Of a stretch of 37,462 bases of DNA, positions 2,610 through 11,077 are shown one piece after another; position 1 is the stretch's first letter; each line of letters starts with the position of its first letter. The stretch lies in NCBI GenBank assembly GCA_026015145.1, contig JAOZGY010000057.1, forward strand, positions 1 to 37,462, given 5' to 3'. This DNA is from Candidatus Bathyarchaeota archaeon. Lineage in GTDB: Archaea; Thermoproteota; Bathyarchaeia; Bathyarchaeales; Bathycorpusculaceae. The notes under the pieces were generated by a model. That model ran no database searches. It was not told the origin of the DNA and worked only from the letters and a program-made list of their open reading frames with translations. The position numbers and the translations under genes were made by a program.

Positions 2610-2749
2610 TAGACTTTACAATGCAAGCTGTTTTTGCTAGAATTAATATACTTACGCCAAAGTATGGGGACAACATTTGTTTTCTCTATCCCTAGAAGCA
2701 CTAGTATTATCCATAGAGCGTTGCAATAATGTAAGGAGAAAGAATCTGC

Positions 2750-2944
2750 TTAGCGTGGGTGTTTATTAAATGCCTTAGCAGTATAATGGGAGTTCTTTGT
2801 CCCGCATGTTCCACAAAACTTCTCAGTTATAACTACAGGATTCTTGCATTTTTCGCAATCGTAGAGCAATTGCGTGCCACAAGTCGTACAATATTTCTTC
2901 TCCATATTATCTGATCCGCATAAGCACCTAACCATATTCAACAA
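2750..2944 (-). CDS. 64-aa double zinc-ribbon protein
   Basis: Successive CxxC-type pairs: CTTCG, CEKC, CGTCG (KYCTTCGTQLLYDCEKCKNPVVITEKFCGTCGTKN). Confidence 0.55.
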   Translation of the reverse strand: MLNMVRCLCGSDNMEKKYCTTCGTQLLYDCEKCKNPVVITEKFCGTCGTKNSHYTAKAFNKHPR

Positions 2945-3720
2945 CCAGATTGCTAGTGTCTGCTCCTCGTTCTTAAGTTATTCTGAGGTTTTTAATAGAT
3001 AAACATAGAGGCGAGACACACAGACAGGCAAAATACACACTCACACTCGGGTATACATAAATAAATACATGTAGAATATGAGAAGGAAAAAGATTAAATT
3101 TTAATCCTTAAATTATCTGATGTAAACGGCGAGATTTTATAGAATATATCGAGATTCTAACAGTCCACCAGTACTACTCTTTACATGGTTTCATCTTTTT
3201 TATTTGGATAAGAAGTTTAAACCTTTCCTGCACAAAAAAACCTTAGCCTAAAACATAAGAAGAATAGGACATTTTTAATGAAATCTTCTTTTCTCTTTAT
3301 TATCAGAGTAAAAAAAGGGGGCTATTAATATAATGTGATATATAATAAGCCACACACACAAAAAGAAACACTCGGAAAATATATGGAAAAACCATGAGAG
3401 AGCTGGCTTTCGGTTCATTGGACAACTAAACTCATTCTAGGACTGGAACTTTCTCGGGATCTCGTTCACTCCTGGAGAGTCCTTGCAGTCACTAACAGTT
3501 TTAAATGCATTTCAAAGAACTCAGAGCTCATCAAACAGCTAAGGATGCTGTGCATAAAAGCTACTCTTAATCTGATACATTTTCCTTGTGCAAATGATCG
3601 GTTTCTCATTATTAGCCAAACTAGAGATTTGATGACGAAGCTGAACAATTAATGCAAAAGTTAAAAGCATCGTTGTCTAAATATGGTTTGTATATCATTA
3701 CTGAAATTACCAATTTTAAG

Positions 3721-3823: not shown

Positions 3824-4033
3824 TTGGTGAAGTGGGAATACAAGGTGGTTCCAATAAAGACTCGGATTCATTCGAGCCACTTTGAAAGTGGTAGTAAACC
3901 GGTAATGGACGACGTTCAGAGTGACATGAACATCTTGGGTAAAGAAGGTTGGGAACTTGTTAGCGTTCAAAACATCAGCCTAAAAGATGATAGGATGTTC
4001 ACGGTTGCTTACCTCAAGAGAGAAAGATATTAA
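3824..4033 (+). CDS. DUF4177-like small protein (69 aa; TTG 3824 or GTG 3827 start)
   Basis: VKWEYKVVPI ... MNILGKEGWELVSV fits the DUF4177 pattern (WEYKVV ... L..lG.eGWELV.v). Confidence 0.6.
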   Translation: MVKWEYKVVPIKTRIHSSHFESGSKPVMDDVQSDMNILGKEGWELVSVQNISLKDDRMFTVAYLKRERY

Positions 4034-4330: not shown

Positions 4331-4481
4331 TATTCTTCCATAAACTGGTTGGGACAAAACTTTCACCTTTGTAAACTTTACATAATAATACCCCTTGCTT
4401 TTAAACATGTTTCATTTAGCTTTAGCGTTATGCTTGGATCGTGCATGCTCGAGGAAGGGGGGAGGAAATTAAATTTTATCC

Positions 4482-4528
4482 AAAAAATGGGGGTTTGCGG
4501 GTGTTATCTCAAGCTTTCACTTGAGTTA
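4482..4528 (+). repeat. tRNA-like repeat family, diverged copy (5' module plus unrelated hairpin)
   Basis: aaaaaatgggggtttgcgggtgttatctc parallels aaaaaaatgggggggtttgcgagtgatatctc at 8399-8430. It continues into a ctcaag/cttgag 6-bp hairpin instead of the T-loop module. Confidence 0.55.
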
Positions 4529-4638
4529 TCACAGAATTTGCGAGAATGTTTTTTGAATTTAATTTTAACCCCCAACCCACAAACTACCTTTTGAAATGCA
4601 TACAGAATAGAAAGCGTCAAACGTTCAAAAAGAAAATC

Positions 4639-6111: not shown

Positions 6112-8328
<2,217 letters not shown>

Positions 8329-8398: not shown

Positions 8399-8516
8399 AA
8401 AAAAATGGGGGGGTTTGCGAGTGATATCTCCACTTGGTATAGGGTTCGAATCCCACCTCGCCCGCAGCTTATTTTCCAAAATAGAGCACAATTTAGAGTT
8501 ATTTTGGCAAAAAAAG
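8399..8516 (+). repeat. tRNA-like repeat family, long copy B
   Basis: The order is an A7 run, tggggggg, then the 50-nt core at 8417-8466 (47/50 identical to copies C and D), then a tail cttattttccaaaatagagcacaatttagagttattttggcaaaaaaag related to C and D apart from a 4-nt indel. Confidence 0.9.
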
Positions 8517-8693
8517 ATAAACAGAACAATAACCAATGTTTGCGACTGTCTTTTACGGCTCTACTGGCAGGGTTTGGTGTCTCGTAATCCAGTAAAAACA
8601 GAACACCCAGGAAGACCACAATTCACATACGCCATAAATCAGAAGGGAAAAGAAAGGTTATCCTATTGGGATTTGCACTCCATGCAACCATGA
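8415..8693 (+). CDS. possible small winged-helix (PadR/MarR-like) regulator, 92 codons, TTG/GTG start inside repeat B
   Basis: The C-terminal part, NVCDCLLRLYWQGLVSRNPVKTEHPGRPQFTYAINQKGKERLSYW, fits the recognition-helix plus wing pattern L..L...GLV.r......GRP..Y.it.kG.e.L. The N-terminal 17 codons are the repeat core itself, so the gene may be real, a fusion or a remnant. Confidence 0.3.
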   Translation: MRVISPLGIGFESHLARSLFSKIEHNLELFWQKKINRTITNVCDCLLRLYWQGLVSRNPVKTEHPGRPQFTYAINQKGKERLSYWDLHSMQP

Positions 8694-8800
8694 TGAAAAG
8701 GAACGCCTCTAATCTTAGCTACTTTTATCCATCAATTTGGGAACGAATGGCGCATCGTAAAAAGCATAGGGTTGTGGTGTGGTGTAATGAAGAAAAAGGC

Positions 8801-9042
8801 GTTCCCATTTGTTGTACATTCTAAAAGTTCCCATGTTCTTATGTTCCCTATTTATGTGGTTCCCGTGCAGTTCATTGTTCCCTTTTCATGGTCTTTTTTC
8901 CCAAGTTCCCTGTTCCCACCGGAAAACGTATACCGGTACGGTAATACAAGGGATTCAGGGAAGGGGGAAAAAGGGAACATATAAGGGAATAGTGACTTTC
9001 AAGTAGTTTTCGTTCCATGGTTTCCCGCCCGTTCCAGTTCCC
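8801..9042. repeat. dense array of GTTCCC hexamers (iteron-like)
   Basis: Perfect GTTCCC on the + strand starts at 8801, 8827, 8843, 8859, 8877, 8905, 8912 and 9037. GGGAAC (minus orientation) is at 8973. Variants: GTTCCA at 9012 and 9031, TTTCCC at 8897 and 9021, GGGAAT at 8985. A TACCGGTA palindrome lies at 8930-8937. Confidence 0.85.
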
Positions 9043-9433
9043 ATGGGGATAAGGCTTACAATAATGGAAAAGATGGAAAAAGGGCTTTTCTGCTTACTTT
9101 ATATCTTCTTTTCTTCTAGTAGTAGTCTTAGTCGCCCAAATAAACAAACATATTGCTTTATGCAAAAACCATTAACCTATACTTTGAGTCAGAAGAAAAA
9201 TTGGAGTATAAAGAATTCATAAAAAAAGTTAAAAAAACAATTAACCAAACTCATTTTAGACTTTGTAAATATAAATACAAACTAGTTATCTGATTGTAAG
9301 AGTGGAATTCAAAGAGAACTATTGCCTAGAGCTGCGTTTTTAGTTAAGAGAGATTAGATGTGGGATTAGTACAATTGGTTTATGATTATGAAAGTTCAAT
9401 TTGTGTTGACGATTTTTATTGCGAAAACACAAG

Positions 9434-11077
9434 CTAATGAGTTGTGTAAATATATAGTATTTTACTAAAGGTTTCAAGTTCTTTTTTTGATATCCAATTT
9501 TGTTTTTCTAATTCTATTAGTCCTTTCTTAACACCTACGCGCAATCGTTTTTTTAGAAGTATACTGGCTTGAATTCCAGTTTCTGTAATATCTTTTTCGA
9601 GCATAGGATTTCTTTCAATAAGCGGTACTAGCTGATTCAAAAATTTCATTATAGCCTTTGAACGAGATTGAAGTAAAGCTTTCAGTTTTGAAGCACCAAG
9701 GGCTCCCTTCATTTTTGTTAAGAGCCCCATGTCTCCAATCAATGTGGGAGGATATACAATGTATCTTTTTTTGTCGTTTTCTTCGTATCGAGCAAGGTAG
9801 AATGGGAGATAAACCAATACGCGCAACCGACTTTTTCCAGTTATAGTTATTGTGTCGAAAACTTTTGGAAATCCTCTTTTTTTATGAATCATATTCCGAA
9901 TTGAGCTAATTATTTTATTGGTGAGATCTTCTAGTAGGACTATTTCTTGTTTCTTTGTTTTAATTTTGGCATCTCTGGCTGCTTGAAGGCGTGAAAATAT
10001 TTTCCGGATAGATTCGATGTGTTCGTCGCATTTAGCCTTTTGTTGCGCAATTTCAAGTTTCAGAGCATTATCAATTTTCAGCTTTCTTTTGGAGTTTGCT
10101 TCGATTTTTTTGTTGAGAGTTGGCAGTTTCTTCTTTATTCTTTTTAGCTTTAATTTCCATTGGGCTTTTTTATGTATTCTTTTGGAGCGTATTTTTGTTT
10201 CGCATCGTTTTGCTTCTACTTTTAGATATCTAAGAGTTTTTTGTAGCTCAACCTTACTTTCCTGGAGGTTTTGGAGGTTTTTCTTGAATTTTTTGGATTT
10301 TCTAGCAATTTTTTTATTATATTTACTTTGGATTCGCAAGATTTTTTTCTTAACTTTAGGCTTGGTTCTCTCAACTTGTTTTCGATATTTATTTTGAGTT
10401 TCTCTGATTTCTGTTCGAATTTTTTTGATCTTTCGTATAGTAATTAATTTCAGAAGCTTCATGCTATTGTCTAAGTTTTTTATGTCTTGGGCATTTCTTT
10501 TTCCTAGGTTTGAGAGCTGATTAATACTATCTTGGAGTTCAAGGTTTTTTATTGTGGCATCTAAAACTACTTTGTTAGTTAGGTACCTTTTTGCTTTCTT
10601 CATTTCATTAAGATAGGTTTTGAAATCTTCCATGAGAGCGGAGTTTGTCATTAGAGCTTCAATCTTTATTTCCTTCTTGCTGCTGAAATTTTTGAAATAA
10701 TCTTTGTTTCTGATGAGAGTTGCGGTATAAGATTCGGTTGTTTTTTGGTTTTTCTGGAGGTCTTTGTCAAATATTGCAGAGTCGGGTATTGTATCGTAGG
10801 AGAGCGTATGTGAAGCGAGACCGAGTCCGTCAAATATCAAAATTGCCCCTTTAAAGGGAACCAACCAAATAGGATAACATGCTTTAGCTACAAAGACAAG
10901 TTTCTCGTCCATTTTTTTTAAAACACGATTTTCTCCTTTCTTTCTCTCGGATTCAACCAAGTAAAGGATGGCTGCCATTTCCATATTTTTTGTGAAATTT
11001 GTGAATCTTTTAGCAGCCAGCGTGGTGAAGGGTACTATAACCCCTCTTTTTTGTTCTTTGTCTGGATGAATAAGCAT
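9434..11077 (-). CDS. Lys-rich coiled-coil protein of unknown function (547 aa)
   Basis: Long ORF. The N-terminal (about 1-130) and C-terminal (about 400-547) parts look globular. They flank about 270 aa of heptad-like, extremely K/R/Q/E-rich sequence (KIKKIRTEIRETQNKYRKQVERTKPKVKKKILRIQSKYNKKIARKSKKFKKNLQNLQ...). I recognise no catalytic motif. Confidence 0.7.
   Translation of the reverse strand: MLIHPDKEQKRGVIVPFTTLAAKRFTNFTKNMEMAAILYLVESERKKGENRVLKKMDEKLVFVAKACYPIWLVPFKGAILIFDGLGLASHTLSYDTIPDSAIFDKDLQKNQKTTESYTATLIRNKDYFKNFSSKKEIKIEALMTNSALMEDFKTYLNEMKKAKRYLTNKVVLDATIKNLELQDSINQLSNLGKRNAQDIKNLDNSMKLLKLITIRKIKKIRTEIRETQNKYRKQVERTKPKVKKKILRIQSKYNKKIARKSKKFKKNLQNLQESKVELQKTLRYLKVEAKRCETKIRSKRIHKKAQWKLKLKRIKKKLPTLNKKIEANSKRKLKIDNALKLEIAQQKAKCDEHIESIRKIFSRLQAARDAKIKTKKQEIVLLEDLTNKIISSIRNMIHKKRGFPKVFDTITITGKSRLRVLVYLPFYLARYEENDKKRYIVYPPTLIGDMGLLTKMKGALGASKLKALLQSRSKAIMKFLNQLVPLIERNPMLEKDITETGIQASILLKKRLRVGVKKGLIELEKQNWISKKELETFSKILYIYTTH

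What the first reader, a model, noticed from the sequence alone, without database searches (positions are those of the whole stretch)
8694..9433. 740-bp non-coding gap with a dense GTTCCC hexamer array next to a very AT-rich tract (iteron or origin-like architecture)
Within 8801-9042 there are eight perfect GTTCCC on the + strand, at 8801, 8827, 8843, 8859, 8877, 8905, 8912 and 9037, with several spaced 16-18 nt apart. There is one inverted GGGAAC (8973) and at least five one-mismatch variants (GTTCCA, TTTCCC, GGGAAT). The decamer agttcccatg occurs at both ends (8826-8835 and 9036-9045). A TACCGGTA palindrome lies at 8930-8937 and a tandem atggaaaag/atggaaaaag at about 9064-9082. A given hexamer is expected only about once per 4 kb per strand, and less often for a GC-containing one in AT-rich DNA. 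The array is followed by about 350 nt of extremely AT-rich sequence (9100-9430) with no credible ORF. Clustered short repeats beside an easily melted tract is the layout of replication origins and plasmid or viral iterons, or of a multi-site transcription-factor array. The GTTCCA ... GGGG pieces at 9012-9048 are loosely reminiscent of archaeal ORB elements, but I cannot establish a real match, and no orc1/cdc6 or rep gene is adjacent. The two track ORFs across the array are translation artefacts of the repeat.
Basis: partly seen in the sequence, partly recalled or inferred. Interest (0 to 1): 0.6.

Follow-up and report, generated by a model that had tools for sequence, protein, structure and literature searches.

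The report
Non-coding tail of a wandering gene cassette
The dense GTTCCC cluster is real, but it is not a replication origin: it is the conserved, non-coding tail of a small winged-helix gene cassette that turns up in different genomic places in related archaea, and the copy here is a broken relic.

Summary
Ten perfect GTTCCC/GGGAAC lie within 304 bp, and no other 300-bp stretch of this 1.53-Mb Bathyarchaeia-type MAG has more than three. The origin reading does not hold. orc1/cdc6 lies on other contigs. In sister genomes the orc1-adjacent origin carries classical ORB pairs and no GTTCCC. The AT-rich tract (28.4% GC) is ordinary and is not conserved. The array (window 8679-9092) is the ~430-nt non-coding tail of a ~0.83-kb cassette: promoter, 92-aa winged-helix gene, tail. 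I found the cassette at 74-87% identity on eight other metagenome contigs, with at least five different right flanks. The tail is more conserved than the gene's third codon positions. It fails every test for coding and keeps 7-10 same-strand TTCCC motifs. It ends where a unit of the genome's dispersed tRNA-like repeat family begins. The exact hexamer, its spacing and the long hairpin are not conserved. In this window the gene has lost its promoter and first ~33 codons, so the copy is a relic. My best guess is a cis-acting multi-site DNA platform for recombination or regulation beside an attachment-type repeat. A strand-specific RNA role is the main rival.

The parts
8400..8516 (+). Copy B of the dispersed tRNA-3'-half-like repeat. 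It forms the left junction that replaces the promoter and first ~33 codons of the wHTH gene.
   Evidence: Repeat families D1 and D2. More than 25 copies in the genome, and copies in all five same-genus genomes.
8511..8693 (+). 5'-truncated winged-helix gene (codons ~34-92 of a 92-aa protein); a pseudogene here.
   Evidence: 70-78% identical to full-length 92-102-aa proteins P0121-P0123 and 43% to a 100-aa ORF in G022. Weak PadR/TFIIE-alpha-type wHTH hits.
8679..9092 (+). Conserved non-coding tail of the cassette; the whole array lies inside it.
   Evidence: 74-87% identity to L045, L058-L063 and L046 over exactly this span. Among six intact copies, blocks are 0.83-0.93 identical against 0.815 at wHTH third codon positions.
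8797..8917 (+). Pyrimidine-rich run of eight TTCCC motifs (seven of them GTTCCC), 70% pyrimidine. In this copy it is shortened by a 33-nt deletion relative to all six full-length homologues.
8872..8996 (.). Long imperfect hairpin (TTCCC arm pairing with GGGAA arm). It is specific to this lineage, not a conserved feature of the cassette.
   Evidence: z = -4.2 (DNA) and -4.9 to -6.0 (RNA, + strand) in the window. L045 z -3.2, L061 z -2.1, but L058/L059/L060/L063 z -0.9 to +1.1.
9001..9055 (+). Small inverted repeat or hairpin GTAGTTTTCGTTCCATGG...CCCATGGGGATAAGGCTTAC, conserved in all seven full-length copies. It holds the sites at 9012, 9031 and 9037.
   Evidence: RNAalifold columns 347-403: 17 stem pairs, nearly invariant.
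9064..9092 (+). A-run plus GGG block that ends the tail. It is homologous to the 5' start of the dispersed repeat unit, and the rest of that unit is degenerate here.
   Evidence: In L061 the tail runs straight into a type-1 repeat. In L045 it runs into a type-2 repeat identical in type to the window copy at 4474.
9093..9433 (.). AT-rich spacer down to the stop codon of the 547-aa gene; not part of the conserved unit.
   Evidence: 28.4% GC, 6.5th percentile. No homologue shares it. No hit in the genome or its relatives.

Best explanation
The array is the conserved, non-coding 3' tail of a ~0.83-kb accessory cassette. The cassette consists of ~95 nt of promoter/operator, a 92-aa winged-helix gene and ~430 nt of tail. 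It occurs in different genomic contexts in related Bathyarchaeia-type populations. SHOWN: the tail is a discrete unit with fixed ends. It is constrained at the nucleotide level and does not encode protein. It carries 7-10 TTCCC motifs, nearly all on the strand of the wHTH gene. It ends where a unit of the dispersed tRNA-like (attachment-type) repeat family begins. The window copy is a relic with a truncated gene, a 33-nt deletion and a degenerate terminal repeat. INFERRED: the tail works in cis as DNA, as a loose multi-site platform for a DNA-binding protein beside the attachment-type repeat. It would serve recombination or mobilisation of the cassette, or control of whatever is read out of the repeat. 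This would resemble the accessory-site clusters that flank attP cores. In this window it is probably no longer functional. It is not a replication origin, and the AT-rich tract next to it is ordinary spacer.
For: The cluster is unique in the genome. Eight further contigs from four samples carry the same unit at 74-87% identity over window 8679-~9090. The shared segment starts ~95 nt before the wHTH start codon and stops at the repeat. Beyond it there are at least 5 different right flanks and at least 3 different left flanks. L044 has the gene without the tail, with the break 5 codons before the stop. Among six intact copies the tail blocks are 0.83-0.93 identical, and the TTTCCCAA block is 0.93, against 0.815 at wHTH third codon positions. 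The coding tests fail. Third positions are the least variable in the candidate frame (0.145/0.17/0.07, against 0.114/0.061/0.185 in the wHTH control). Copies differ by frame changes. No protein homologue was found. Motif number is kept (7-9 TTCCC on the + strand per copy) while individual sites turn over. The tail abuts the repeat family in L061, L045, L058 and L060. The module is 42-44% GC against 34.7% for the genome.
Against: No binding protein is identified. The wHTH family has its own conserved upstream repeat (TACTAGCNCTGAAC), not TTCCC. No integrase or other recombinase gene lies on any cassette contig, though all are under 3 kb. No long ORF runs through the repeat in this genus. Perfect-hexamer columns are no better conserved than their surroundings (78% against 82-84%). 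Spacing is irregular (7-28 nt here, 5-39 nt in L045), which is unusual for ordered nucleoprotein sites. The same-strand bias of the motifs would fit an RNA-level role equally well. All homologues are close (74-94%), so the constraint signal is modest.
Confidence: 0.42

Rival explanations
1. Strand-specific RNA element: the tail is the 3' UTR of the wHTH mRNA or a separate small RNA. Its repeated UUCCC motifs and hairpins act at the RNA level, for example in stability, termination or protein sequestration.
For: Nearly all motifs lie on the wHTH strand. In the window and in L045 the long hairpin is clearly more stable on the + strand (-55.8 against -43.9 and -49.8 against -41.8 kcal/mol). Single-sided changes there are G-U compatible only on the + strand. 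A small hairpin at 9001-9055 is kept in all seven copies. The + strand has only one run of five or more T, whereas the - strand has four conserved T5 runs (reading of alignment A7).
Against: The long hairpin is absent from four of seven copies (z -0.9 to +1.1). The seven-sequence RNAalifold covariation term is positive (+2.76), with only 2 compensatory pairs of 97. Mapping single-sequence folds onto a second copy breaks 19 of 90 pairs, and paired positions are no better conserved than unpaired ones. A conserved T6 run sits inside the left arm. There is no Rfam match, and a covariance model found nothing in 100 relatives.
Confidence: 0.2
2. Iteron-type replication origin (or centromere) of a small plasmid or virus; this window holds an integrated remnant of it.
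For: The array is a clustered short repeat with variable unit number (33-nt indel of TTTCCC units). It is conserved as non-coding DNA. It sits in a mosaic accessory region punctuated by attachment-type repeats. An AT-rich tract follows it in this window.
Against: No rep, par or primase gene occurs in any of nine contexts. The mobile unit is only ~0.83 kb. Only a 5-nt core is conserved, and the spacing is irregular and not conserved. The AT-rich tract is not shared by any homologue. There are no matches in IMG/VR, phage or plasmid collections.
Confidence: 0.12
3. Slippage-prone low-complexity DNA with no function: a pyrimidine tract that expands and contracts and is carried along with the wHTH gene.
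For: Individual sites turn over, unit number varies, and the hairpin comes and goes between lineages. The perfect hexamers are not preferentially conserved.
Against: The tail is more conserved than synonymous sites of the adjacent gene in intact copies (for L045 against L046, 86.6% against 61% at third positions). It has fixed ends in different contexts.
Confidence: 0.12
4. Decayed small protein gene with an internal repeat: a ~60-90-aa hydrophobic protein (MFLCSQ...FHGLFSQ...).
For: An open frame of 57-99 codons with the same apparent start and stop exists in most copies. The 33-nt indel is a multiple of three.
Against: Substitutions are not concentrated at third positions. Copies differ by internal frame changes that would rewrite the protein. 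The hexamers fall in all three phases (spacings 26, 16, 16, 18, 28, 7). The gene caller did not call it on any contig. There are no homologues among 5.8 billion protein clusters. Several frames on both strands are open there, because the composition lacks stop codons.
Confidence: 0.05
5. Chromosomal replication origin (oriC) with ORB-like elements.
For: Only superficial: GTTCCA...GGGG at 9012-9048 and a neighbouring AT-rich tract.
Against: orc1/cdc6 genes are on C103 and C67. The genus oriC beside orc1 has ORB pairs and zero GTTCCC. No ORB match lies in the window. The array is absent from 5 same-genus genomes, 331 same-family genomes and 400 class-level genomes.
Confidence: 0.01

Closest known systems
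Arm-type and accessory-site clusters flanking attP cores of tyrosine-recombinase elements (lambda, L5, HP1; my own knowledge)
   Same: Several hundred bp of non-coding DNA with many short repeated motifs lie directly beside an attachment-type core. A small winged-helix gene is next to it, as Xis-type factors often are. The unit travels with the mobile element.
   Different: No integrase was found on any cassette contig. The motif core is only 5 nt with irregular spacing. Sites were seen on one side only. The 'core' here is a member of a family of more than 25 dispersed repeats, not a single tRNA gene.
Integron gene cassettes with attC sites, including archaeal integrons (Ghaly et al. 2022, PMC9668308; found, not read in detail)
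   Same: A single gene plus a 3' non-coding recombination-type element recurs in different contexts, within arrays of one- or two-gene segments separated by same-strand structured repeats.
   Different: There are no GTTRRRY/RYYYAAC core sites. The tail is ~430 nt rather than 57-141 nt. The palindrome is not conserved. The cassette carries its own promoter. No IntI was seen.
Plasmid iteron origins
   Same: Clustered direct short repeats in non-coding DNA, followed in this window by an AT-rich tract.
   Different: No Rep gene, no fixed 17-22-bp unit, no regular spacing, and the AT-rich tract is not conserved.
Archaeal oriC with ORB/mini-ORB elements and Orc1/Cdc6
   Same: A GTTCCA fragment and a G-run, nothing more.
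   Different: The true ORB pairs of this genus look different and sit next to orc1. There is no orc1 here.
SSV-type 'suicidal' integrase elements at tRNA genes
   Same: tRNA-3'-half-like attachment repeats bound short accessory segments. A short ORF at the tail's end reads into the repeat (L061 MGKHGKRGFRVTSPLGTGFES...).
   Different: No long integrase frame runs through any repeat copy in six genomes of the genus, this one included (longest 128 aa). I did not test that model further.

Membership tests
Archaeal oriC (ORB + Orc1/Cdc6) | Adjacent orc1/cdc6 gene | tested here: not met
   Cdc6_C hits occur only on C103 and C67.
Archaeal oriC (ORB + Orc1/Cdc6) | Inverted ORB elements (dyad plus G-string) flanking an AT-rich unwinding region | tested here: not met
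   The genus ORB (TCCAATAGAAAT..GGGG) is found beside orc1 in G003 and G005. No such site lies in the window, and there is no GTTCCC in those origins.
Archaeal oriC (ORB + Orc1/Cdc6) | GC-skew inflection or marker-frequency peak | not testable with these tools
   The genome is 139 contigs. The local skew only follows gene orientation.
Iteron-type plasmid or viral origin | Adjacent rep gene | tested here: not met
   None in the window or in eight homologous contigs.
Iteron-type plasmid or viral origin | Regularly spaced direct repeats of ~17-22 bp | tested here: not met
   Only TTCCC is conserved. Spacings are 7-28 nt here and 5-39 nt in L045, and they are not conserved.
Iteron-type plasmid or viral origin | Conserved AT-rich unwinding element beside the repeats | tested here: not met
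   Homology ends at ~9090, and the tract is absent from all homologues.
attP-type recombination region | Directly beside an attachment core | tested here: met
   The tail ends at the start of a repeat unit in L061, L045, L058 and L060, and at a degenerate one in the window.
attP-type recombination region | Cognate recombinase in the same element | tested here: inconclusive
   None on contigs under 3 kb. No long ORF through the repeat in this genus.
attP-type recombination region | Protein binding to the repeated motifs | not testable with these tools
   Needs EMSA or footprinting.
Integron attC | R''/R' core sites RYYYAAC ... GTTRRRY | tested here: not met
   The motif is GTTCCC (GTTYYY), and no such pair lies at the hairpin ends (reading).
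Integron attC | Conserved imperfect palindrome | tested here: not met
   The hairpin is significant in only 3 of 7 copies.
MITE or foldback element | Many copies per genome with terminal inverted repeats | tested here: not met
   Single copy in G000.
Known structured RNA family (Rfam 15) | Covariance-model match | tested here: not met
   No hit at gathering score. At relaxed E-values only chance miRNA-like hairpin hits appeared.

The most novel reading that the evidence does not exclude
The wHTH-plus-tail unit is a true mobile gene cassette. Its TTCCC-rich tail, together with the adjoining tRNA-like repeat, would be the recombination site of a previously undescribed cassette-shuffling system in Bathyarchaeia. 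That system would resemble an integron but use tRNA-like structured repeats. It would explain the row of one- and two-gene accessory segments in this window.
Probability: 0.15. Interest if true: 0.75.

Novelty: new variant of a known kind. Interest (0 to 1): 0.4.

Why it matters
Almost nothing is known about how Bathyarchaeia exchange accessory genes. This is a sub-kilobase unit with fixed ends: one regulator gene plus a constrained non-coding tail. It is found in at least five contexts and always butts against a tRNA-like repeat. That makes it a concrete handle on the mobility mechanism behind the repeat-punctuated accessory regions of these genomes. The result also removes a false origin candidate. 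For this genus, origin mapping should look beside orc1, where ORB pairs are present.

Tried and rejected
I tried ten things that led nowhere or ruled a reading out.

1. tRNA and Rfam scans of the window and the gap gave nothing.
2. I asked whether the gap is a decayed copy of the genes that follow the 547-aa gene in its relatives. tblastn found no similarity.
3. blastn against phage and plasmid collections gave nothing relevant.
4. Three GTTCCC at 8-14-nt gaps in 400 genomes of the class matched only a (GTTCCC)n microsatellite in G408.
5. The array DNA found nothing in 40 relatives or in 331 family genomes.
6. Exact conserved 18-22-mers found nothing in IMG/VR or in 185,579 species genomes.
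7. The translated ORF across the array had no homologue among 5.8 billion protein clusters.
8. A covariance model of the hairpin found no further copy in 100 relatives or in the distant wHTH loci. A long inverted repeat downstream of the wHTH in L049 is locus-specific; L010, L047 and L050 have none.
9. I looked for an intact integrase frame running through the tRNA-like repeat and found none in six genomes of the genus, this one included.
10. I looked for a second cassette copy or the cassette's left end in G000 and found none.

Full report
**Observation.** The gap 8694-9433 was read directly. GTTCCC occurs on the + strand at 8801, 8827, 8843, 8859, 8877, 8905, 8912 and 9037, and on the - strand at 8973 and also 8739. 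That is 10 of the window's 21 hits in 304 bp. Whole-window shuffles give 11.2 +/- 3.0 hits, and none of 100 reached 21. In the whole 1.53-Mb, 139-contig assembly (34.7% GC) there are 379 hits, and no other 300-bp stretch has more than 3.

With one mismatch allowed, eight more sites appear, and the common core is TTCCC. Fifteen of the window's 82 TTCCC lie here. The layout is a pyrimidine-rich block of + strand sites (8797-8917), a centre, a purine-rich block of - strand sites (8958-8990), then + strand sites again (9012-9042). The AT-rich tract is 28.4% GC, the 6.5th percentile for this genome. That is low but ordinary for intergenic DNA.

**Context.**
- To the left lies katG (6112-8283, - strand, 54% GC). 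Its upstream 165 nt are shared with same-genus genomes G003 and G005, which lack the array.
- Next comes copy B of a dispersed tRNA-3'-half-like repeat (8400-8516). The window holds further copies at 3713, 4474, 5993, 11225 and 16746, and the genome has more than 25.
Its first ~33 residues are the repeat read through. From about 8511 it is 70-78% identical to codons ~34-92 of full-length 92-102-aa winged-helix proteins found on small ENA contigs. So it is a gene that has lost its promoter and N-terminus.
- To the right, the 547-aa gene (9434-11077, - strand) is not an orphan. It has more than 250 homologues at 45-71% identity. It is a divergent second paralogue: 28% identical to the C114 copy in this genome and 28-33% to the copies in its same-genus relatives. 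Its nucleotide homology to relatives stops at its stop codon.

**The array has homologues.** The contigs carrying the full-length wHTH genes, and members of their 90% clusters, show that window 8679-~9090 aligns at 74-87% identity to L045, L058, L059, L060, L061 and L063. It also aligns partly to L046 and L062. In each contig it lies directly downstream of an intact wHTH gene.

The segment shared among these contigs begins ~95 nt upstream of the wHTH start, at ...TTCGCTTAATAC. It ends ~430 nt after the stop. Outside it there are at least five different right flanks (L045; L058 and L060; L059; L061; the window) and at least three different left flanks. L044 has the gene but not the tail, with the break five codons before the stop. 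So this is a discrete ~0.83-kb unit that occurs in different places. It is rare. It is absent from 5 same-genus genomes, 331 same-family genomes and 400 class-level genomes. Only one wHTH relative exists among 185,579 species genomes, in a MAG titled Candidatus Bathyarchaeia archaeon.

**Coding, RNA or DNA?**
- *Constraint.* Among the six intact copies, wHTH codon positions 1, 2 and 3 have mean pairwise identities of 0.886, 0.939 and 0.815. The tail blocks score 0.83-0.93, and the TTTCCCAA repeat block scores 0.93. The tail is therefore constrained.
- *Not coding.* In the one recurrent open frame, third positions vary least (0.145/0.17/0.07, against 0.114/0.061/0.185 in the wHTH control). Copies differ by internal frame changes. 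The hexamers fall in all three phases. No protein homologue exists.
- *Long hairpin is not conserved.* The hairpin at 8872-8996 is striking in the window (z -4.2 to -6.0). It is present in L045 (z -3.2) and weakly in L061 (z -2.1). It is absent from L058, L059, L060 and L063 (z -0.9 to +1.1).
- *Little RNA-fold support.* The seven-sequence RNAalifold consensus has a positive covariation term and 2 compensatory pairs of 97. Unbiased mapping of single-sequence folds breaks many pairs. Only a small inverted repeat at 9001-9055 is kept in all copies.
- *What is conserved.* The number and strand of TTCCC motifs is kept (7-9 per copy on the + strand). The exact hexamer and its spacing are not. Perfect-hexamer columns are 78% identical to L045, against 82-84% elsewhere, and L045 has only 3 + 1 exact GTTCCC/GGGAAC. 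The window's eight perfect + strand copies are an extreme of this family.

**Right end.** The last ~20 nt of the tail (ATGGAAAAGATGGAAAAAGGG...) are homologous to the A-run plus GGG start of the dispersed repeat. In L061 the tail runs straight into a type-1 (tRNA-like) repeat. In L045 it runs into a type-2 repeat (GGGTGTTATCTCAAGC...) of the kind found at window 4474. L058 and L060 keep a shorter piece. In the window the unit is degenerate. A short ORF starting at the tail's end reads into the repeat.

**Origin test.** Cdc6_C hits are on C103 (at the contig edge) and C67 only. In four same-genus genomes the orthologous orc1 has a ~780-bp AT-rich upstream gap with no GTTCCC. The two examined for repeats, G003 and G005, carry inverted ORB-type elements there (CACCCC..TTTCTATTGGAAA). 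No such ORB lies in the window. The AT-rich tract at 9093-9433 is not shared by any homologue. No rep-like gene appears in any context.

**Who binds it?** The wHTH family, including 45-52% relatives that sit in defence-island-like contexts next to Cas1 fragments, restriction-modification genes and a TIR protein, has a conserved upstream element CTAGCNCTGAAC before a TATA-like box. That element, not TTCCC, is its likely operator. The distant relatives have no TTCCC tail.

**Conclusion.** It is shown that the array is a unique, real, conserved non-coding tail of a small cassette with fixed ends. It abuts an attachment-type repeat, and the copy here is a relic. It is inferred that the tail acts in cis as a loose multi-site DNA platform for recombination or regulation (0.42). 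A + strand RNA role is the main rival (0.20). A replication origin is unlikely: 0.12 for a mobile-element origin and about 0.01 for oriC.

Noticed in passing
window 9434-11077 (- strand): The 547-aa coiled-coil protein is not an orphan. It has more than 250 homologues of ~550 aa at 45-71% identity. This copy is a divergent extra paralogue: 28% identical to the C114 copy in this genome and 28-33% to the copies in the same-genus genomes.
   Followed up: partly
window 4474-4560; L045 1575-1650: The dispersed repeat family has two types that share the 5' part AAAAA-GGGG-TTT-CGGGTG-ATCTC. Type 1 continues as a tRNA-like T-arm. Type 2 continues as CAAGCTTT(T/C)ACT.GAGTTATCAC..ATTTGCGAGAAT. G000 has about 22 type-1 cores and about 5 type-2 copies.
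   Followed up: partly
L036 (G003) and L039 (G005), ~2730-3510: The likely chromosomal origin of the genus: a ~780-bp AT-rich gap upstream of orc1 with inverted ORB-type elements CACCCC(T)TTATTTCTATTGGAAA. In G000 the same orc1 starts at the edge of contig C103, so its origin is unassembled.
   Followed up: partly
L047 3017-3904 and L049 3019-3904 (- strand): Distant wHTH homologues (45-52%) sit divergently next to a Cas1 gene that is split into two frames at the same place in both contigs. Other neighbours are an Eco57I/MmeI-type restriction-modification enzyme, a KaiC-like ATPase and a TIR-Roc-WD40 protein.
   Followed up: no
L049 4405-4615: A ~210-nt imperfect inverted repeat downstream of the wHTH gene (z -4.4 and -3.9 on the two strands), bounded by GCGCGC palindromes. 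It looks like a locus-specific foldback or MITE-type insertion.
   Followed up: partly
L045 660-760; L044 290-330: A second short-motif run, (A/T)GTCC(C/T)AA four times at 9-11-nt spacing, lies upstream of the wHTH promoter. It resembles the TTCCCAA units of the tail.
   Followed up: no
L045 800-860, L046 120-180, L047/L049 ~3900-3960: A conserved operator-like element (G/A)T(A/G)CTAGC(N)CTGAAC lies before a TATA-like box upstream of every wHTH family member. It occurs twice in the close family.
   Followed up: partly
window 6112-8283; L002 (G003): The high-GC katG and 165 nt upstream of it are shared at 82-86% with same-genus genomes. In G003 the katG frame is split into at least two ORFs.
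   Followed up: no
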